From contig OZ024742.1 in NCBI GenBank assembly GCA_964016885.1, positions 120,342,001-120,406,000 on the forward strand: a stretch of 64,000 nucleotides of DNA. The letters are read 5' to 3'. The translations under genes were made by a program, and so were the position numbers. The notes under the pieces are model-generated. The model made no database searches, had not been told where the DNA came from, and was given only the letters and a program-made list of their open reading frames with translations. Of this stretch, positions 481-38,636 are shown piece after piece. How positions within the stretch are numbered: position 1 is the first letter of the stretch; every line of letters starts with the position of its first letter. This DNA is from Eledone cirrhosa (taxonomy: Eukaryota).

Positions 481-588
481 AAGTATCACAGTAGTGCTCC
501 AAAAAGGAGCAACAAGCATAGTTTGATTGTGCAAAAATCCGCTTTTTTGCTTGATAATTTTCATGTCAAAATACATTTTTTCTGTGGA

Positions 589-2663
589 CATCATCATCAT
601 CATCATCATCATCATCAACGTTTAACGTCCGTGTTCCACGCTTGCATGGGTTTGGACGGGGGTAGTCCCACTTGAGGCAAGAGTGATTGTCTTGCTCGCA
701 TAGGACTGTCTGGCAGGTTTTCTACAGTTGGATGCCCTTCCTAACACCAACCACATTTACAGTGTGGGTCTGGGAGGTTTTTACCGTGTTGCCTACACGG
801 CCACATTACAGCGTGGACTGTGTGTTTTTTTGTCGTGACACCTACACGATCTCACTTGTTTCGGCCTGGATGGCGCGGCACCAACATAACTTTACATAGA
901 ACGGGGTGGTGTGGATGGGGTGGGGGTGGTGGCGGGACGGGGTGTATTTTGCTAGAGATGCCTACTGGCAAGGCGGGTCTTCTCTGTTACTGAGTACCGC
1001 CAAAGGTCTCGGTCCAGTGACATTGTCCTGGAGAGGTGCAAGTGTGTGAGGTCGGAGTTTATCAGCTCATCCCATGTTTTTCTAGGTCTGCCTATTCCAT
1101 GGCTACCGTCTATCTTTATTGCCCTGCACTTTGTTATGCAGCTATCGACTTTCATGCGCATCACGTGTCCATACCAACGCAGCCTTCCCTCGAGCAAACA
1201 ACACCCGATCCCTCTTATCTCCAATTTTTTCCTTAGTTCGTTTATGCCCCGCCGCTCACGCATATTACCGCTACACATCCAGCGGAGCACGCAAGCCCCG
1301 CCCCTCTCCAGTCCGCGCACACCCTCTGCACACAATGCCCAGGTCCCACTACCATGCAACATCGCTGTTCGTATGCAGGCATCGTACAACCTGCCTTTCA
1401 TTTTTAGGGAGAACCCTTTAGCAGCTAATAGTGGTATAAGCTCTCTGAACTTTTTCCAACCAGTTCTGACTCTAGCTACAGTACTTTCAGAGCACCCTCC
1501 CCCACCGCTGATTTTATCGCCCAGGTAACGGAAGCTGTCCACTATTTCTATAGAACCCTCTGCGCAATTGAAAGAGCTAGTATTCTGTGGGCACCCGCTG
1601 CCACTTATTGCACCAGAACACCGGCCACACGCAAAGTCTATGCTCCCAGTTAGCTTACCTGTGATCCCACTACATCCCCTATGCACCCATACCTCGCATT
1701 TAGGACACAAGATGGAGCCCCCACCCACGCCTTTCCTACATACCGAGCACGACCATTTCCCAGAAGGGACCGCCGCCTTGTTTTCCCCCCTACAAACTAG
1801 AACTTTGGTCTTAGCCAGGTTAACCTTAAGTCCTTTTGACTCTAGGCCGTGCCTCCCATGTTTGGAACCTCCCCTCCAGCTCGGTCATTGATTCCGCCAT
1901 GAGCGTCAGGCCGTCTGCGCACAGGAGCCCCCATGGGCAGCCTGTCCTGAACTCCTCTGTTATAGCCTGAAGGGCAATAATAAATAGTAGGGGGCTGAGA
2001 ACAGAGCCCTGATGGACGCCAACTTTTACGCCAAACTCTTCACTATATTCGTTGTCAACTCTAACCTCGCTGACTGTTTCTTTATACATGGCTTGTATAG
2101 CCCTCACAAGCCATTCATCAACGCCTAGTTTTCTAAGAGCCCACCAGATAATGGAGCGGGGGACTCTGTCGAAGGCTTTCTCCAGGTCGACAAAAGCTAA
2201 GTAGAGGGGTTTACCTTTAGCTATGTACTTCTCCTGTAGTTGTCGTACTATGAAAAGAGCGTCTGTGGTGCTTTTGCCTGACACAAACCCGAACTGCATT
2301 TCATCTAGGTCAATTCTCTCTCTGATTAGTTGCGCTACCACTTTCTCCGTGACCTTCATGACCTGGTCGATTAATTTAATGCCTCCATAGTTACTCCCAT
2401 CTAGGGCGTCTCCTTTACCCTTATAACAGTTAACGATGATGCTGCTATGCCAGTCCTTCGGAACAACCCCATTCCGTACGACTTGGTTAACTATGCGGGT
2501 GACCATGGTGTGTCCCACCGTGCCAGATGCCTTCAGCATCTCAGCAACTATTTCCGAAGGCCCAGCCACCTTACCCGTCTTCATATCCCCGATTGCCTTA
2601 CTTATTATACTCCCCTCGACTAACACTGCTGGTGCCTCTATCGGGTCGATATGGGGGAGACTG
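589..2663 (-). mobile_element. 5'-truncated RTE-clade LINE (RT, C-terminus, 3'UTR, (GAT)n tail), A-to-G hypermutated
   Basis: ORFs 1826-2626 (QFGF, FVDLEKAFDRVPR, GVHQGSVLSPLLF) and 952-1728 (CxxC..H..C, RLRWYGHVMRM, GRPRKTW) are joined by one frameshift. The 3'UTR at 617-951 is shared with many other copies. (CAT)n lies at 589-616. Confidence 0.95.
952..2626 (-). pseudogene. RTE reverse transcriptase pseudogene; catalytic YADD reads CADG
   Basis: ORF track translations. Codons at about 1908-1935 read TGG GGG CTC CTG TGC GCA GAC GGC CTG, versus TGG GAA CTC CTG TAT GCA GAT GAC CTC in the copy at about 31680. Confidence 0.92.
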
Positions 2664-3899
2664 TATATATAATTTGAAACTTCTGGATGTGAACTTTCTT
2701 CTCATATACTTTTGATCAAAATCTAACACATATCATGTCAGTTCCCATCAGCCACCCCCAAATTTCCACCCATTTACATTTGTTCCATTTTCGTTTTTGA
2801 CTGCTGAACATTAATGCTAGTACTAGTTCAATGAAACTCAATTTATGTTGAAAATGATAAAGTCTTGAAGAGGACTCCTTTTTGCTTCATTTTGATATAA
2901 AAACTAATGGGGGTAGGTAAGATGATCTTTATGAAATATAAAGGTGAAAATTTTATCAGTAATTTTCACTTAGAAAAGAACATATTTTCTTCAAAATTTT
3001 TATATCATAAGAAAGAAAACTTTCTCGCAAATTCAATATGGCCATTGGTGATACTGACCATGAGAAGACACAAAAGGGCAAAGTTAATAGAAGGGGGAAT
3101 ACCATGGATGCACGTAACTCTATTCCAATGTGGCGATAGTTGAAACGGCACACAAATCTAAGGCTACAAATATCAAGTTTGAGCCAGAATTTCTACAAAC
3201 ATCAAGTTTGAGCCAGAATTTCAAGAAATGGACAAATTAAGTAAATAATTAGTGTATTTTTTCTACGAAAAAATACACTAAAAACCTACAAGTCTTCTAG
3301 AGCCCAAAATTAGTGTACAATCATCATATAGAGAATGATGTTTATTCTCTCTTGCTGCTTTAACATGTGGAGAATAAGGTCAGAATTTCTATTTTTCTTT
3401 TAATAAATATTGGTCAAATTTTGACAATAAAAATATATTGTACAATGAATATTATTTTGTAGATTATTAAAGTCCGGTTTTTTTTTTTTAGTTTGAATAC
3501 TGTCGTGGTTTGTTTACATTTTCTCAAGTACTGTTAATTCAATTTTTTCTATCTTTTCTACTAATGAGTTTGCTTACAGTAATTTATTTTCACATTTTGT
3601 TTGTAACAGGACTGTAAGTAACACTTTTGCTTAACTTTTAAGCCTCTGCAAATGCTGTACTGAATTCGCAACCTAGCATGATATGTAAGTGTCGGATTAT
3701 GGTAAAAAGTATATGAGAAGAAAGTTTACATCCAGAACTTTCAAATGATATAAAATTATCCATTGAAAAAGTGTATTTTGACATGAAAATGATCAAGCAA
3801 ACTGTGCGTGTCACCCCTTCCATGAAGATCTACAGGGATACCTAGTAAAAGAGTAAAAGTTTGATTTAAATATTGTCAAAAATTCATAGTGATACCTAC

Positions 3900-4725: not shown

Positions 4726-5679
4726 TTAAACTCATGACAATGGATCTTCTCTGTTACAACCATCAATTTATTTTTAATTCTGACATAGACCATATCTACA
4801 GCTTCATAACTATTCAATTATTACATTCTAAAATATACAAATATTCATTAATATGCAAATGCTAGAGAATAAAAGTAAGAGTCCAGCAAGTTGATGTGAC
4901 CCAGCCACAATTCCTGTTGCTAGCCATTTCAATATATTTACACCAATAATATTCCTGGAAGATGTATGAACACAAACATATATTTACACCAATAATATTC
5001 CTGAGAGATGTATGAACATCACAACTTACTCAGCTTTATCTAAAATGTTTATGCCTATGAAAGAAATCAATATTCTCTCCCAGACAGAAGTATAACTTGG
5101 AAAGTGTAATGGTCTATTGAAATGATTTGCAAACTGAATGTTGAGCATATCAGATTGCAAGTTCACATAGTAATATAGACTGTATAATGCATTTGTATAA
5201 AGCACTTTCAATTCTCAATTTACTTTACCTATCTGGAAACAGGTATATATGTCTATTTGAAAATTTTCAACCAAAGATATTGAAGGAAAATTAGAAGACT
5301 TCTGTAATATAAAATAAAAATAAGTTTAAGAGCTATTATGGTTTGTGAATGAACTTGATAAATGTTTAAAGCAAACCCATTTGTTATAAAATAAAAATGA
5401 ATATTAATATTGGAAAGTTTATAGAGATTAGATATTATTGAGGGGCAAATAGTCTTCATTTATTAGATTTAAAGAAAAATATACCATTGAAATAAGTGTA
5501 GAATTAACTTTAATATGAAATTAAATACATTCAGATGTAGGAATAAATAAAGTCTATGGTTTTCTCTTTTAAAATGTATAAAATCAATTCTTAATTAGAT
5601 TTTAATCTCAACCCACTCAGTATTAATTAGAACAGGGTTAAAACATTGTTTACTTGATTTAATTAGAAAACCACTCATA

Positions 5680-8068
5680 CATAGTGCATATGTGTATAGT
5701 GCATAGTGCATATGTATATGCCCTAGCATATAGTGTATGTGTGTGTGAATATATGTACTGGTATATAGTGTATATGTGTGTGAATATATGTACTGATATA
5801 TAGTGTATGTGTGTGAATATATGTACTGGTATATAGTGTATGTGTATGTGTGAATATATGTACTGGTATATAGTGTATGTGAATATATGTACTGGTATAT
5901 AGTGTATGTGAATATATGTACTGGTATATAGTGTATGTGTATGTGAATATATGTACTGGTATATAGTGTATGTGTATGTGAATATATGTACTGGTATATA
6001 GTGTATGTGTGAATATATGTACTGGTATATAGTGTATGTGTATGTGAATATATGTACTGGTATATAGTGTATGTGTGTATGTGAATATATGTACTGGTAC
6101 ATAGTGTATGTGTATGTGAATATATGTACTGGTATATAGTGTATGTGTGAATATATGTACTGGTATATAGTGTATGTGTGTATGTGAATATATATACTGG
6201 TATATAGTGTATGTGTGTATGTGAATATATATACTGGTATATAGTGTATGTGTATGTGAATATATGTACTGGTATATAGTGTATGTGTATGTGAATATAT
6301 GTACTGGTATATAGTGTATGTGTGTATGTGAATATATGTACTGGTATATAGTGTATGTGTGAATATATGTACTGGTATATAGTGTATGTGTGAATGTATG
6401 TACTGGTATATAGTGTATGTATATGTGAATATATGTACTGGTATATAGTGTATGTGTATGTGAATATATGTACTGGTATATAGTGTATGTGAATATATGT
6501 ACTGGTATATAGTGTATGTGTGAATATATGTACTGGTATATAGTTATGTCAATATATGTACTGGTATATAGTGTATGTGAATATATGTACTGGTATATAG
6601 TGTATGTGAATATATGTACTGGTATATAGTGTATGTGTATGTGAATATATGTACTGGTATATAGTGTATGTGTATGTGAATATATGTACTGGTATATAGT
6701 GTATGTGTGAATATATGTACTGGTATATAGTGTATGTGTATGTGAATATATGTACTGGTATATAGTGTATGTGTGTATGTGAATATATGTACTGGTACAT
6801 AGTGTATGTGTATGTGAATATATGTACTGGTATATAGTGTATGTGTGAATATATGTACTGGTATATAGTGTATGTGTGTATGTGAATATATATACTGGTA
6901 TATAGTGTATGTGTGTATGTGAATATATATACTGGTATATAGTGTATGTGTTTGTGAATATATGTACTGGTATATAGTGTATGTGTATGTGAATATATGT
7001 ACTGGTATATAGTGTATGTGTGTATGTGAATATATGTACTGGTATATAGTGTATGTGTGAATATATGTACTGGTATATAGTGTATGTGTGAATGTATGTA
7101 CTGGTATATAGTGTATGTATATGTGAATATATGTACTGGTATATAGTGTATGTGTATGTGAATATATGTACTGGTATATAGTGTATGTGAATATATGTAC
7201 TGGTATATAGTGTATGTGTGAATATATGTACTGGTATATAGTGTATGTGTATGTGAATATATGTACTGGTATATAGTGTATGTGTGTATGTGAATATATG
7301 TACTGGTGTGTATGTGTATGTGAATATATGTACTGGTATATAGTGTATGTGTATGTGAATATATGTACTGGTATATAGTGTATGTGTGTGTGAATATATG
7401 TACTGGTATATAGTGTATGTGTGTGTGTGAATATATGTACTGGTATATAGTGTATGTGTGTGTGTGAATATATGTACTGGTATATAGTGCATGTGTATGT
7501 GAATATATGTACTGGTATATAGTGTATGTGTATGTGTGAATATATGTACTGGTATATAGTGTATGTGTGAATATATGTACTAGTGTATGTGTATGTGAAT
7601 ATATGTACTGGTATATAGTGTATGTGTATGTGAATATATGTACTGGTATATAGTGTATGTGTATGTGAATATATGTACTGGTATATAGTGTATGTGTGAA
7701 TATATGTACTGGTATATAGTGTATGTGTGTATGTGAATATATGTACTGGTGTGTATGTGTATGTGAATATATGTACTGGTATATAGTGTATGTGTGTGTG
7801 AATATATGTACTGGTATATAGTGTATGTGTATGTGAATATATGTACTGGTATATAGTGTATGTGTGTGTGAATATATGTACTGGTATATAGTGTATGTGT
7901 GTGTGAATATATGTACTGGTATATAGTGTATGTGTGTGTGAATATATGTACTGGTATATAGTGTATGTGTATGTGAATATATGTACTGGTATATAGTGTA
8001 TGTGAATATATGTACTGGTATATAGTGCATGTGTATGGATATATGTACACTTGTCCTGGCATATAGTG
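5680..8068. repeat. 2.3-kb minisatellite: core GAATATATGTACTGGTATATAG plus a variable (TG/TA)n linker, units about 28-38 bp
   Basis: Directly visible tandem array of roughly 70 units. It generates the spurious 589/548/185/147-aa H/T/Y/I-rich ORFs on the minus strand. Confidence 0.98.
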
Positions 8069-9003
8069 CATCATCATCATCATCATCATCACCACCATCA
8101 TCACCATCGTCGTCATCATCATTATTATTATCCCCATTCAACCTCCATTTTTCCACACTAGCATGGGTTAGATGAATTGTCCCATTGTGAGACAAGTCAG
8201 ATCAGATGACCATGTCTAGCTCACACAGAACTGTTCTTGGCTTCGTTTCTATGGTCGGATGTCCTTCCTAACGCCAACCACATGTATAGTGTGGACTGGG
8301 TGCTTTTAATTGTGGCAGCAAGATGACCACTTTATAGTGTGGACTGGGCACTTTGTGTGACACCAACACGACAACCACTTTACTGTATGGACAGGACGCT
8401 TTTTGTTGTGTCACCAACCTAACCACTTTACAATGTGAACTGGGGACTGGGGGAGAGGAAGGTGTGTATGTGTTGGATGGGGATTGGAGAGGTAGGTCTA
8501 TGGTAGGACAATTAGATGGTGATGGGTGAAGTGTTAGGACATAAGTGAAGAGTGGAGTGTTAGGATGTGGGTGAGGGATGGGGGTGTTAGGACGTGGGAG
8601 GTGCATGGAAGGGGAAGGAGAGTGGTGCATAGTAGAGACCACTAGATGTATACTTCAACCCATGCACATGGGAAGGCGGGTCTTCTGCAGTATTGCATAA
8701 CACCAGAGATTTCGATCTTATGTCATCACCTTTGAAAGGTGCAATTGTGCAAGGTAACTTTTAATCACCTCATCCTAAGTCTTCTTAGGTTTTCCTCTTC
8801 CATAGCCTCCATTAACTTTGAGTGCCCTGCACCTTTTTATACTACTGTCATCCTTCATACGCATCACATGTCCACACCAATGCATTCTCTTCTCCTGCAC
8901 ACTGCATCTGATCCCTCTTATGCCCAATTTCTCTCTCAGTTCATTTACGCTTTGCCCTTCATGTATATTACTTGCAGCATTGCTGTTCACACACATGCAT
9001 CAT
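8069..9003 (-). mobile_element. RTE 3' fragment (C-terminal coding region, 3'UTR, GAT/GGT tail)
   Basis: ORF 8775-8996 reads NELREKLGIRGIRC..WCGHVMRMKDD..GRGKPKKT. The shared 3'UTR motifs and a (CAT)n tail are present. Confidence 0.88.
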
Positions 9004-12380: not shown

Positions 12381-15300
12381 CACCACCACCACCGCCACCA
12401 CCATTTTACGTCCGTTCTTCCACGCTAGCATGGGTTAGACGGGTTGTCCTGTTGTGGGCTATGCCAGGTCAGGTGACCATGTCTTGCTTATACGGGAACT
12501 AATTCTGGCTTGATTTCTATAGCTGGATGCCCTTCCTAACACCAACCTATTTACAGTGAGTGCTGGGTGCTTTTTTCCATGGCGCCTACACGTACACTTT
12601 ACAGTGTGCGCTGGGTGCTTTTTTGCTGTGCACCTCCACGACCATTTTGCAGTGGGAGTGTGGGGGGGGGCATATTGTCTATATGCTTCAGCTTCGGCTT
12701 GTACCTGTGGGGGGTCGGGTACTCTGTATTACTGCATGACACCGGAGGTCACGGTCGTGTGTCATCGCCTTTGAGGGGTGTAATTGGGTTAGGTCGGCTT
12801 TTATCATCTCATCCCAGGTCTTCTTGCGTCTCCCCATTCCGCGGTTTCCATCGACTTCTAGTGCTCTGCACCTTTTTATGCAGCTGTCATCCTTCATGTG
12901 CATCACATGTCCATACCAACGCAACTGCCTCTCCTGCACACAGCATTTGATTCCTCTTATGCTCAGTCTCTCTCTCAATTCATCTATGCTTTGCCGTTAG
13001 CGTATATTACTATTACACATCCATCAGAGCATGCTGGTTTCGTTTCTTTCTAATCTACACAAGTCTTCCCCAGACAGCGCCCAGGTCTCACTACCATGTA
13101 ACATTACTGTTCGTATATACGCATCATACAGTCTGCCTTTTATTTTGAGGGAAAAGCCTTTTGCAGCTAGCAGTGGCAGTAGTTCCCTGAACTTCTTCCA
13201 TCCGTTTCTTACCCTAGTTATTGTACTTTCCGAACACCCATCTCCGCTGCTAATTCGGTCACCTAGGTAGCAGAAGCTGTCTACTATTTTTACAGAGCCC
13301 TCCCAGAGTTTGGTGGTACTTGTTTCCTGTGGCTGTTTGCTGCTTGCTGTCCCAGCACAGCAGCTACATGTGAAGCCTACATTCTTAGTCAAGCTTCCTG
13401 AGATCCCGCTACATCTCTTGTATGCATTTCCTACATACTGAGCAAGGCCATTTCCCCGAGGGGATCTGGTTCTGTTTTCTCGTCTACTTATAAGGACCTT
13501 AGTCTTTGTCAGGTTGACTTTGAGACCCTTTCTTTCTAATCCCTGCTTCCAAGTTTGGAATTTCTTCTCTAGTTCTACCATAGATTCAGCTATAAGTGCG
13601 AGGTCATCTGCATACAGGAGTTCCCATGGGCATCCGGTCTTAAACTCCTCTGTTATTGCCTGCAGAACTATGATGAACAGGAGAGGGCTAAGAACAAAGC
13701 CCTGATGGACACTGTACGCTAAATTCCTCGTTATACTCATTGCTAATCCTAACTTTGCTGACTGCTCCCCTATACATGGCTTGTACAGCTTTCACAAGTC
13801 ATTCATTTACTCCTAGTTTTCTAAGAGCCCACGGGGAACTCTGTCAAAGGCTTTCTCGAGAACGACGAATGCTAGGTAGAGCGGCTTACTTTTAGCTAGG
13901 TACTTTTCCTGTAACTGCCTCACAAGGAAGAGGGCATCAGTGGTGCCTCTTCCTGGCACAAACCCAAATTGCATCTCATCTAGTTTCACCCGGTCCCTAA
14001 TCAACTGTGCTATAACTCTCTCTGTTACTTTCATGACCTGGTCCATCAGCTTTATAGCTCTATAGTTTCCTCTATCTAGTGCATCACCTTTACCTTTGTA
14101 GCAGTTGACAATGATGCTATGCACCAATCCTTTGGTATGACAGCTTCTATTATTACCTTGTTAACAATACGTGTGGTTATGGTGTGACCTACCCACCCAG
14201 ATGCCTTCAGCATCTCGGCAGCTATACCCGATGAACCGGTTGCCTTCCCCGTCTTCCTATCTTTGATTGCCTTACTTACTACGCTGCTGCTGACTTGTAC
14301 TGCTGGCCTCTCTATAGCCTCTACTTGGGGTAGGGTCTCTTCTTCCCAATCATTCTCATTTAGAAATCTATCATAATGGCTCTTCCATGCTTCTTTCTTC
14401 TCAGCACTTTATCAAGCTCACCTTTATCATTCCGGATACACTCTCCAATGACATCACAATTCTCTCTGACACACTGCCTCGCAATCTTGAACACCTGTTT
14501 CTGGTCCTCATGTTGCAAAACATGCTTGAATTTTCTATCCTCTGCTTCCCTCCTAGCTAAGTATACTTGTTGCCTAGCTTCCCTCCTGGTCTCTATGTAA
14601 TGTACCCTGCTTGCCCTGTTCTTCCATTCTTTCCATGCCTGTCTCTTGGCCTTAACTGCCTCATCTACCTTATTGTTCCACCACCAAGTCACTCTCCTCC
14701 TGCCTGTGGTCTTACTCCAGCCACAGATCTCATCCGTTGCCTTTAGTAAGTTATTTTTTAGGAACTTCCAGTGTCCTACATTGAATGTCTCTATCTGTTC
14801 TTCTTTACTGGCATAGGCATTGAGTAAAATATCTTTAAATCTGTTACTGGCTGAGGGGTCTTTCGGCTTCCAGATCTTTCTTCTCCAGGTTGGCTTCTGT
14901 TTCCAGGTTCGTCTAGTTCTGATCATGAGGTCGCTGACAACTAAGTTATGTTGGGAGGTATATTCCTCACTAGGGAAGGCTTTTGTGTTTATGACCGTCC
15001 ATCTGTTACGTCCTCTGATGAGGATAAAATCTATCTGACTAGAATGCTCCCCTGATCTATAGGTGATCAGATGGTTGTCGGGTTTTTTGAAGTTTGTGTT
15101 ACATATCAACATGTCATTGGCGTCGCAGAAGCCTGAAGCCTTCTTCATTTCTTGTGCCACCCCCATGGCCTCGCAATGATTAGGAAGTCATTGTCGTTTG
15201 TTAGAGCAGTAGTGTGCATTAGGGACTCGTAAAACCTATCTTTAAGTTCATCTGGCAACCCCGATTGGAGTGCGTAAGCTGATATTATTGTGGTAAATGT

Positions 15301-16595
15301 TTTATTCAGGACTAGTCTGAGTTTAATGATTCTTGGATTCACCCTGTTCACTGAGATTACCTTATCTACCCACTTGTCAGCTAGTAGGATACCTACATAA
15401 CCCATCTCATCGTCATTTCCCACCCAGAAAAATTTGTAGCGCTGCCTTTTGCCTACAAGGACTCTAGCAAACTCTCCTCTCTATCTAGTCTCTTGCACAC
15501 AGCGTACATCAATTTCCTTTCACTCTAGCATCTCTATGATTTCTCCTGCTCTTCCTTTCATTGTGCTTACATTGATGGTTCCAACTCGGAGTTTTGGGCA
15601 TTCGTCAACATTCGTGGGAAAGGGTAAATTTTTGCAGGGGGGTGTGTATGCTTCCTGTCTCTGAATTGAAGCTTCACATGGATGCTTGGTAGCTCGCGGA
15701 TTCATATTCATTTTCCTTTATTAATTCGGGGTTGCTCCATTTATTCTCAGCTCATCCATACATAACGGTAGGAGAATTCAGGGCTAGAAGAACAGTGGTG
15801 GTGGTAATAATGGCAGGGTTTGTTGGGGCTGGGACAGGTGAGGAGAGACGTAGTAGTAGTAATGGCAGAGTTTGTTAGGGTTGGTAATGGGGGGGGGGCA
15901 TGTTGAGGTTTGATTGGTCGAATAGGCTATGGTGGTGTGAGAGGGTGGGCAGGAGGGAAATTGTGAGATAGGTAGCCATCATAGCCTATAGCATATCAGG
16001 GCAAAATAAACCGATACGAGTACCTATATTAGACAAGGCGAAATGTTAGGATTTCGAAGGGAGTAGATGACTTCGTAGAGACAGAGAAATGATAAATACA
16101 ACAATAATAATAATGTAAGAGAGAGGAAGGGGGTAGATGACTTCGTAGAGAGACAGTCATAGTGACAGCATGGGAAAAAAAAAGGGTAAAAAAAAAAATA
16201 AATATGTGTTGTGGAGGCTAGTGAAATGATAAATACAACAATAACTAATAATAGTGTGAGCGGAACATTTGTAATTGGGAAATAGAGGGATACCAGGAAG
16301 ATATATATGGATAGCTGGAACATGGTTTAGCAGCTCTAGTGATTCATTTTAGCCTTTCAGAATCAAGTGTGTCTTATCTCTTGAAGAACCTCAAGATGAG
16401 TGAGGGATGAATGGAAGAGAAAGGGAGGTAATAGGTAGGGGAGACGTGGCTAAGAGAGAGAGGGGGTAGCCATCATAGCCTATAGCATCTCAGGGCGAAA
16501 TAAACCGATACGAGTACCTATATTAGACAAGGCGAAATGTTGGGATTTCGAAGGGAGTAGATGACTTCGTAGAGAGACAGTCATACTGGCCAGCC
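12381..16595 (-). mobile_element. Full-length (about 4.2 kb) RTE LINE, decayed
   Basis: APE endonuclease motifs (RVGTINV, GVGILL-like, SAYA.QSG, SQIDFIL) in ORFs 14360-15711. RT motifs (QFGF, LEKAFDRVPR, WELLYADDL) and RWYGHV in ORFs 12688-14127. (GGT)n tail at 12381-12402. Candidate TSD TTTTTATA at 12373-12380 and 16596-16603. Confidence 0.93.
12688..15711 (-). pseudogene. RTE APE-RT polyprotein pseudogene (multiple frameshifts and stops)
   Basis: Six collinear minus-strand ORF fragments carry APE, RT and C-terminal motifs. Confidence 0.92.
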
Positions 16596-31059: not shown

Positions 31060-31975
31060 ATAGCTGCTGAGACGCTGAAGGCATCTGGGTCTGTAGGCCA
31101 CACTATAACCACACGTATTGTTAACCAGGTAATACTAGAAGGTGTCATACCAAAAGATTGGTGCAGTAGCATCATTGTCAACTGCTGCAAAGGTAAAGGT
31201 GATGCACTAGATAGAGGAAACTATAGAGGTATAAAGCTGATGGACCAGGTCATGAAAGTAACAGAAAGAGTTATAGCACAGTTGATTAGGGACCGGGTGA
31301 AACTAGATGAGATGCAATTTGGGTTTGTACCAGGAAAAAGGCACCACTGATGCCCTCTTCCTTGTGCGGCAGTTACAGGAAAAATACCAAGCTAAAAGTA
31401 AGCCACTCTACCTGGCATTCGTCGATCTCAAGAAAGCCTTTGACAGAGTTCTACGTGCTATAATCTGGTGGGCTCTTAAAAAACTAGGAGTAGATGAATG
31501 GCTTGCGAAAGCTGTACAAGCCATATATAGGGGAGCAGTCAGCAAAGTTAGGATTAGCAATGAGTATAGCGAGGAATTTAGCGTACAGGTTGGTGTCCAC
31601 CAGGGCTGTGTTCTTAGCCCTCTCCTGTTCATCATAGTCCTGCAGGCAAAAACGGAGGAGTTTAAGACCGGATGCCCATGGGAACTCCTGTATGCAGATG
31701 ACCTCGCACTTATAGCTGAATCTATGGTAGAACTAGAGAAAAAATTCCAAACTTGGAAGCAGGGACTAGAAAGAAAGGGTCTCAAAGTCAACCTGACAAA
31801 GACTAAGGTCCTTGTAAGTAGACTAGAAAACAGAACCCATATCCCCTCAGGGAAATGGCCTTGCTCAGTATGTACGAAAGGTGTAGGTAGGAACTCCATT
31901 CTCTTCCCCAAATGCAAACAATGGGTACACAAGAGATGTAGCGGGATCTCAGGAAGCTTAATTAAGAATGTAGGG
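31060..31975 (+). mobile_element. Internal RTE RT fragment lacking both ends
   Basis: ORFs 30973-31350 and 31307-32092 (NYRGIKL, QFGF, FVDLKKAFD, GVHQG, WELLYADDL, HKRCSG) are close to the reverse complement of about 13380-14225. Confidence 0.93.
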
Positions 31976-38234: not shown

Positions 38235-38636
38235 TACAGGCAGTAGGCACCTCCTAACCAAAAATACACCCCCCATCCCAATACCCCTACCCCCACCACC
38301 ATCTACACCACCCCTTTCTCTGTAAAGTTATGTTGTTACCACAACATCCAGTCCTAAATAAATGAGGTCGTGTAGGTATCACAACAAAAAAAAAACACAC
38401 AGTCCACGCTGTAATGTAGCCATGTAGGTAACACGGTAAAAACCTCCCAGTCCACACTGTAAACGTGGTTGGTGTTGGGAAGGGCATCCAGCTGTAGAAA
38501 ACCCGCCAGACAGTCCTATATGAGCGAGACGACCAATCTTGCCTCACGTGGGACAATTCCCGTCTAAACCCATGCTAGCGTGGAAGATGGACGTTAAGCG
38601 ATGATGATGATGATGATGATGATGCTGCTGCTGCTG
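38235..38636 (+). mobile_element. RTE 3' end (same subfamily as the 589-2663 copy)
   Basis: UTR collinear with the reverse complement of 617-975, ending in a (GAT)n(GCT)n tail. Confidence 0.9.

What the first reader, a model, noticed from the sequence alone, without database searches (positions are those of the whole stretch)
850..2600. RTE copy with clustered sense-strand A-to-G hypermutation: possible ADAR-edited RNA written into the genome
Seen: against sister copies at 12381-16595, 31060-31975 and 38235-38636, this copy differs at many conserved positions, overwhelmingly by A-to-G on the RTE sense (minus) strand. Examples: WELLYADDL>WGLLCADGL (GAR>GGG, TAY>TGC, GAC>GGC), GRNS>GGGS (AGG AAC>GGG GGC), HKRC>HRGC (AAG AGA>AGG GGA), GSETW>GSGTW, RLERNE>GLERGG, EKKF>EGRF, NYRG>NYGG, SKV>SEV, IKD>IGD. 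Synonymous GTA>GTG and CTA>CTG changes and 3'UTR changes (TACCACA>TGCCGCG) follow the same pattern; about 20 or more codons are affected by eye. The changes fall in patches (about 860-930, 1180-1350, 1590-1770, 1850-1935), while stretches such as 1380-1550 look untouched. Known: this is the opposite direction to CpG decay and to APOBEC (G-to-A) editing, it matches ADAR A-to-I hyper-editing read as G by a reverse transcriptase, and coleoid cephalopods edit RNA very extensively. Inference: an edited transcript was retrotransposed and arrived dead, with its catalytic YADD destroyed. That would imply an ADAR-based LINE restriction leaving heritable genomic scars. Caveat: the coding comparators are a different subfamily.
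Basis: partly seen in the sequence, partly recalled or inferred. Interest (0 to 1): 0.9.

Follow-up and report, generated by a model that had tools for sequence, protein, structure and literature searches.

The report
ADAR-edited retrotransposon RNA fossilised in DNA
A young jumping-gene copy carries 80 A-to-G changes on one strand, and six other copies in this genome show the same on either strand, likely because RNA-edited double-stranded transcripts were copied back into inherited DNA.

Summary
Real. The 5'-truncated LINE copy at 589-2664 (-) differs from 29 near-identical sisters at 91 sites; 80 are sense-strand A>G, clustered, none A>C or A>T. One patch with 19 changes is an exact 136-nt contig in 2 of 3 runs of one sample; two other patches were not recovered. 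Targeted searches found four more tailed A>G copies (up to 265 of 268 differences) and, unexpectedly, two tail-less fragments with T>C only, i.e. A>G on the antisense strand. Five of these show the textbook ADAR context; the window copy shows it only weakly. Best reading: ADAR hyper-edited sense/antisense duplexes, and either strand was reverse-transcribed into germline DNA. Corrections: the 3'UTR example is subfamily sequence; truncation alone had killed the copy; edited copies are rare (2 of 4066 at YADD), so restriction is not shown; cephalopod identity was not tested. This scan noted similar sense-strand scars before in other genomes (L1, ERV LTR, retrocopy). The antisense fossils appear new.

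The parts
589..2664 (-). 5'-truncated young non-LTR (RTE-type) retrotransposon copy carrying 80 sense-strand A>G changes
   Evidence: Pfam RVT_1 and PHD
589..616 (-). (GAT)n 3' tail, as in the sisters
617..951 (-).
1188..1363 (-). dense patch, 24 A>G; 1218-1353 (19 of them) is an exact contig in runs X1 and X2
1585..1726 (-). dense patch, 20 A>G, over the PHD-like zinc finger; no long exact contig listed
1786..1947 (-). dense patch, 19 A>G, with one inserted G near 1852 that shifts the frame; no exact contig over 1887-1929
1910..1921 (-). reverse-transcriptase catalytic motif, YADD in the sisters, CADG here
2032..2590 (-). lightly edited 5' part, 12 A>G
2666..2740 (-). 5' flank: target repeat, matches 3677-3752 inverted; no A>G-only pattern seen by eye
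546..588 (-). 3' flank: continuation of the target repeat, matches 3759-3801 inverted; about 5-7 target bases lost, no target-site duplication

Best explanation
The copy is a truncated LINE insertion with 80 clustered sense-strand A>G changes, likely templated by an RNA that ADAR had hyper-edited while it was paired with antisense RNA of the same young family. Shown: spectrum, clustering, confinement to the element, 5' truncation and (GAT)n tail, six further one-strand hypermutated copies on other contigs or chromosomes, edits on either strand. Inferred: thousands of >99%-identical copies in both orientations give long near-perfect sense/antisense duplexes (in trans, or as inverted copies in one host transcript). 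ADAR turns 15-55% of A into inosine. The element's reverse transcriptase reads I as G during target-primed insertion, supplied in trans or made before editing, because the edited RNA no longer encodes YADD. Sense strands insert by their tail. Antisense strands have no tail and likely enter as internal fragments primed at TA tracts. Inheritance through the germline is inferred from presence in the assembly at flank-like read depth.
For: 80 of 91 A>G with no A>C or A>T. Among 239 aligned segments, seven stand out against their nearest kin: window 80 of 88, L061 265 of 268, L104 71 of 79, L105 69 of 71, L033 26 of 34 A>G; L128 67 of 75 and L129 57 of 59 T>C. Pooled neighbour rates on the edited strand of five other copies: 5' T 198/348, A 193/412, C 73/353, G 31/321; 3' G 200/408 against 0.27-0.30 for the rest. 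This matches the ADAR preference stated in PMC4365171 (passage) and holds for the two T>C fragments only when read on the antisense strand. Window edits fall on high-rate triplets (p=0.0016) and share 39 sites with L061 (23.9 expected; p=0.005 after triplet control). Exact 136-nt contig with 19 edits at depth 6.7 and 8.9, flanks 5-9; word shares 0.43/0.42/0.27 fit 0.40 with and 0.26 without that contig. All five A>G copies have the tail, both T>C copies lack it. Neighbouring older copies show balanced A>G and T>C. No long internal inverted repeat in the RNA.
Against: In the window copy alone no single neighbour test is significant (5' G 12/124, p=0.08; 3' G 28/160, p=0.23), and the overlap with L061 fades to p=0.06 once region is also controlled. 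Two dense patches were not recovered as exact contigs in any of 4 runs (the tool warns that holes prove nothing). Run type is not on record and the supporting runs are one sample. The duplex partner and source locus were not found. No RNA evidence of editing was obtained. Only two antisense cases; two further T>C patterns found 0.
Confidence: 0.85

Rival explanations
1. Adenines were deaminated in DNA, for example by ADAR acting on the DNA strand of an RNA:cDNA hybrid or an R-loop, at or after insertion.
For: Would give one-strand changes confined to the element with ADAR context, and would explain T>C copies without an antisense template. ADAR activity on hybrids is recalled, not from a call.
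Against: Sense RNA should dominate, so tailed T>C copies should be the common class; none was found (both T>C hits are tail-less; 0 hits), while all five A>G copies are tailed. 36-55% of A over 0.6-2.3 kb would have to escape inosine repair.
Confidence: 0.07
2. The reverse transcriptase misincorporated C opposite A in bursts (low dTTP or an error-prone enzyme), with no deaminase involved.
For: The window copy's own context bias is weak and 12 edits follow a G.
Against: Other copies have strong ADAR context (L061 5' G 17/184, p=2e-21); no accompanying other errors (A>C, A>T absent); sharp unedited 3' ends (1, 0 and 0 of 78 A in the last 240 nt of three copies).
Confidence: 0.04
3. Assembly or RNA-polishing artefact.
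For: Two dense patches have no exact contig in the runs laid; the six other copies were not checked against reads.
Against: One patch with 19 changes is an exact contig in two runs that also hold the unique flanks at the same depth. Seven separate loci, each one-stranded, on different contigs.
Confidence: 0.02
4. An existing copy was overwritten in place from an edited host pre-mRNA (RNA-templated gene conversion).
For: Older inverted RTE copies lie near some edited copies (31060-31958 in the window; within 4 kb in L128 and L129). In L128/L129 the fragments could be edited parts of host transcripts.
Against: Those neighbours are only 72-73% alike and show no skew; flanks show no A>G-only pattern; L061 has no inverted partner in 10 kb.
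Confidence: 0.02

Closest known systems
APOBEC 'DNA editing' footprints in endogenous retroviruses (Knisbacher and Levanon, PMC4866542; passages of text and one supplement)
   Same: One-strand clustered hypermutation of a retroelement intermediate, fixed in the genome and read against unedited sisters.
   Different: G>A on cDNA in LTR elements of vertebrates. That screen covered LTR elements, called other cluster types negligible and found invertebrates at noise. Here A>G, non-LTR, ADAR context, both RNA strands.
ADAR hyper-editing of avian retroviruses RAV-1 and ALV and of HTLV-2/STLV-3 in culture (review PMC8586724, one passage; primary papers not seen)
   Same: Edited RNA is reverse-transcribed, so A>G clusters appear in DNA copies.
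   Different: Exogenous viruses, not an endogenous LINE family with thousands of copies; the passage mentions no antisense-strand fossils.
Hyper-edited repeat RNA in transcriptomes (PMC4365171, passages; squid and octopus repeats PMC9068888, passages)
   Same: Dense A>G clusters with 5' G depletion and 3' G enrichment in repeat-derived dsRNA; PMC9068888 suggests an unexplored anti-transposon role in cephalopods.
   Different: Those edits are in RNA only; here they are in DNA.
ADAR1 restriction of human L1 (PMC5224506, passages)
   Same: ADAR acting on a LINE life cycle.
   Different: There the effect was editing-independent and no edits were seen in over 2.5 kb of L1 RNA; here the deaminase footprint is in inserted copies.
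Octopus RTE elements with signs of recent activity (PMC9115989, passages)
   Same: RTE-type LINE with endonuclease and reverse transcriptase, recently active.
   Different: Identity with that family and the host taxon were not tested; the passages seen report no hypermutated genomic copies.

Membership tests
ADAR hyper-editing footprint | A>G dominance on one strand | tested here: met
   80 of 91 A>G, 2 T>C
ADAR hyper-editing footprint | Clustering of edits | tested here: met
   33 adjacent pairs against 10 expected, 0 of 20000 shuffles
ADAR hyper-editing footprint | 5' G depleted, 3' G enriched (window copy) | tested here: inconclusive
   right direction, single tests not significant; triplet-score test p=0.0016
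ADAR hyper-editing footprint | 5' G depleted, 3' G enriched (five other copies pooled) | tested here: met
   5' T 0.57, A 0.47, C 0.21, G 0.10; 3' G 0.49
ADAR hyper-editing footprint | Long double-stranded RNA substrate | tested here: inconclusive
   no long internal inverted repeat; both strands found edited in separate copies, which is indirect
ADAR hyper-editing footprint | Dependence on ADAR catalysis; inosine in the RNA | not testable with these tools
   needs knockdown or inosine mapping; no RNA holder listed
RTE-clade non-LTR retrotransposon | APE endonuclease plus reverse transcriptase | tested here: met
   sister L007: Exo_endo_phos E=1.3e-10, RVT_1 E=1.5e-32; its frames are broken, so a single ORF was not shown
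RTE-clade non-LTR retrotransposon | Short tandem-repeat 3' tail | tested here: met
   (GAT)n in the window copy and in 28 of 29 sisters, one masked
RTE-clade non-LTR retrotransposon | Placement in the RTE clade by RT phylogeny | not tested
Target-primed insertion | 5' truncation and intact tail | tested here: met
   sisters run on upstream of 2664
Target-primed insertion | Target-site duplication | tested here: not met
   about 5-7 bases lost against the paralogous target at 3677-3801
APOBEC DNA editing of retroelements | Sense-strand G>A clusters | tested here: not met
   1 G>A of 91
TA-specific duplex-DNA hypermutation (scan note e1-9889545) | A>G and T>C together in one copy, at TA steps | tested here: not met
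   each copy is one-stranded; 22 of 80 window edits follow T

The most novel reading that the evidence does not exclude
Both strands of ADAR-hyper-edited LINE duplex RNA are written into the germline: sense strands by tail-primed insertion in trans, antisense strands as tail-less fragments captured at TA tracts. The genome thus keeps a datable fossil record of germline dsRNA and ADAR activity, and edited patches can occasionally be passed on by daughter copies.
Probability: 0.55. Interest if true: 0.85.

Novelty: new variant of a known kind. Interest (0 to 1): 0.74.

Why it matters
It shows a route by which RNA edits become heritable DNA, in a non-LTR element, and parallels APOBEC scars with a different enzyme and substrate. 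The copies are single-molecule snapshots of ADAR action over up to 2.3 kb in cells that pass on DNA. Antisense-edited inserts imply that long LINE duplexes exist there and that RNAs with no coding role or tail can be reverse-transcribed into the genome. It makes an open proposal (ADAR as a transposon defence in heavily editing animals) testable by genome screening alone, and the first count says the visible effect is small.

Tried and rejected
mis-designed pattern, 0 hits; the G at that site is the state of an older subfamily (2252 copies); 30 of them decay by G>A/C>T, so 4 of the 80 window sites coincide with older-subfamily G, but the 29 close sisters have A there. T>C patterns, 0 hits; 101 copies of several subfamilies with Tyr>Cys at YADD; 50 were examined (30 loci plus 20 fetched; the window copy and L061 already known) and none was a clear new case. 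L158 (A>G 56, G>A 39, distant kin) and L156 (72-73% to its best kin) were not counted. 20 further copies were unedited. In-place pairing with nearby inverted copies: neighbours unskewed. Strict protection of the 3'UTR: rejected, because L104 is edited close to its tail. No RNA holder listed. Exact-match laying left 1887-1929 without cover in all 4 runs. The joint 570-2664 may be an empty allele or a paralogue of the target repeat; undecided. No host gene among 20 further window ORFs scanned with Pfam (only RVT_1 in another RTE copy). Literature: ten searches listed no title or abstract start describing A>G-hypermutated genomic LINE copies. Carmi et al. 2011 (Nat Commun) and Kim et al. 1996 were not held, and a scan note cites a mammalian precedent that I could not trace, so absence from print is not established. 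One supplement of PMC4866542 could not be searched.

Full report
The element. Window 589-2664 (minus strand) is a 5'-truncated non-LTR retrotransposon ending in (GAT)n. A sister copy carries Exo_endo_phos, RVT_1 and PHD domains. A search of the own genome had 5790 candidates, scored 40, and returned 42 matches, the whole-length ones 94-95% identical; 29 sisters were used. They differ from their column majority at 0-15 of 2020 sites, so the family is very young. The flanks match one target repeat that also lies, uninterrupted and inverted, at 3677-3801; about 5-7 target bases are lost and there is no duplication.

The observation. Of 91 substitutions 80 are A>G on the sense strand, with no A>C or A>T; one G is inserted near 1852. 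In the sisters A>G makes up 14 of 121 differences. Four of the 11 other differences are shared with a small sister lineage and one with a single sister, so the copy is as young as they are. Edits cluster strongly (33 adjacent pairs against 10; 0 of 20000 shuffles) in 1188-1363, 1585-1726 and 1786-1947. They hit 60 codons, 45 non-synonymously, and turn YADD into CADG.

Is it in DNA? Three runs of one sample held 0.43, 0.42 and 0.27 of the sampled words of 1180-1950. Edit-free words predict 0.26, and adding the 1218-1353 patch predicts 0.40. Runs X1 and X2 contain a 136-nt contig identical to 1218-1353, with 19 edits, at depth 6.7 and 8.9; unique flanks lie at 5-9. The run type is not on record; cover of non-repeat flanks and 1.4 Gb of contigs suggests DNA. 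Against this, exact laying gave no long edited contig for the other two patches and no cover at 1887-1929 in any of 4 runs; the tool says contigs drop rare variants. Read support is therefore partial.

Other copies. A search with an edited stretch found L060/L061 (266 of 271 A>G over 2.6 kb) and L033. Patterns with two fixed G found L097/L104 and L101/L105. A control with two fixed C found two fragments with T>C only; two more T>C patterns found none. Scored against nearest kin among 239 segments, mostly gathered by edit-seeking searches, seven stand out: A>G 80/88, 265/268, 71/79, 69/71, 26/34; T>C 67/75, 57/59. Two doubtful old segments were not counted. At the YADD motif 2 of 4066 young copies carry the double change. 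With a per-site rate near 0.5 this suggests roughly 1 copy in 1000 (inference).

Context. On the edited strand, five other copies pooled give 5' T 198/348, A 193/412, C 73/353, G 31/321 and 3' G 200/408. This is the ADAR preference stated in PMC4365171 (passage). The T>C fragments obey it on the antisense strand. The window copy leans the same way but no single test is significant; its edits do sit on high-rate triplets (p=0.0016). It shares 39 sites with L061 (23.9 expected; p=0.005 with triplet control, 0.06 with region added). Its weaker bias is unexplained.

Anatomy by strand. All five A>G copies end in the tail. Both T>C copies are 0.6-0.7 kb internal fragments with no tail, edited end to end and set in TA-type microsatellite. 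Unedited tail-less pieces were about 3 of 120 rows, duplicates not removed. TA tracts follow the tail in 35 of 76 young copies. Nearby older copies are unskewed and flanks show no A>G-only pattern. The RNA has no long internal inverted repeat. Three copies spare the last 240 nt (1, 0, 0 of 78 A), but L104 is edited close to its tail.

Mechanism. Shown: one-strand A>G clusters confined to the element, on either strand, with ADAR context overall. Inferred: near-identical copies in both orientations yield long duplexes; ADAR deaminates them; reverse transcriptase reads inosine as G. Two heavily edited copies lost YADD, so the protein came in trans or before editing. Antisense strands likely entered by priming without a tail. 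DNA-level deamination predicts tailed T>C copies, which were not found; polymerase error does not predict the context; artefact is limited by the exact contig. Restriction is not shown: scarred copies are rare, truncation kills most copies anyway, and loss of edited RNA leaves no genomic trace.

Prior knowledge. APOBEC scars in LTR elements are established, with other cluster types negligible and invertebrates at noise (PMC4866542; passages; one of its supplements searched, one not). ADAR hypermutation of retroviruses is cited in a review (PMC8586724; passages). ADAR1 limits L1 without editing it (PMC5224506; passages). Cephalopod repeat editing as defence is called unexplored (PMC9068888; passages). 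Active octopus RTEs: PMC9115989 (passages). Passages of PMC2873906, PMC3197674, PMC4189041, PMC5974252 and PMC8072771 gave no precedent. Ten searches listed none either, but Carmi et al. 2011 was not available and a scan note cites a mammalian precedent. This scan recorded sense-strand cases in other genomes, unchecked by me; none on this DNA. The host taxon was not tested.

Verdict. A real feature and a new variant of a known kind (deaminase scars in retroelements), with the antisense fossils as the new part. Interest 0.74.

Noticed in passing
L096 (G000:C1 near 352866650) and L098 (G000:C3 near 118957600), L007 positions 3010-3076: Two insertions with different 5' ends share the same six A>G within 18 nt plus four other private states that most kin lack. 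Could be daughters of a lightly edited source copy, or a converted patch from another subfamily.
   Followed up: partly
L002 1-880 and 1141-3535; L017; L020: Young copies lie tail to tail in inverted orientation a few hundred bases apart (up to 99% alike), ready-made hairpin sources if transcribed through.
   Followed up: no
L128 3060-6360: The antisense-edited fragment sits among three tandem copies of a 400-800 bp unit, each ending in a G-rich TA microsatellite; the unit is not edited. Flanks on the edited strand hold G and no C.
   Followed up: partly
window 546-588 + 2666-2740 and 3677-3801: Inverted pair of a high-copy repeat about 1 kb apart, perhaps terminal repeats of a DNA transposon; the LINE inserted into one arm. 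A joint 570-2664 in three runs may be the empty allele or a paralogue.
   Followed up: partly
L034-L039, G000:C28:65449307-65473209: Six near-identical truncated copies in a tandem array over about 22 kb.
   Followed up: no
runs X4-X20: Runs of many other organisms hold 6-22% of the words of this stretch, about the unedited share at best; the family may be shared by relatives or moved horizontally.
   Followed up: no
L007 positions 2232, 2250, 2814: Sites with a disfavoured 5' G are edited in two or three independent copies, hinting at structure-driven hot spots.
   Followed up: no
window 5595-8201: Long overlapping open frames on the minus strand with no Pfam match; probably a low-complexity repeat.
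   Followed up: no
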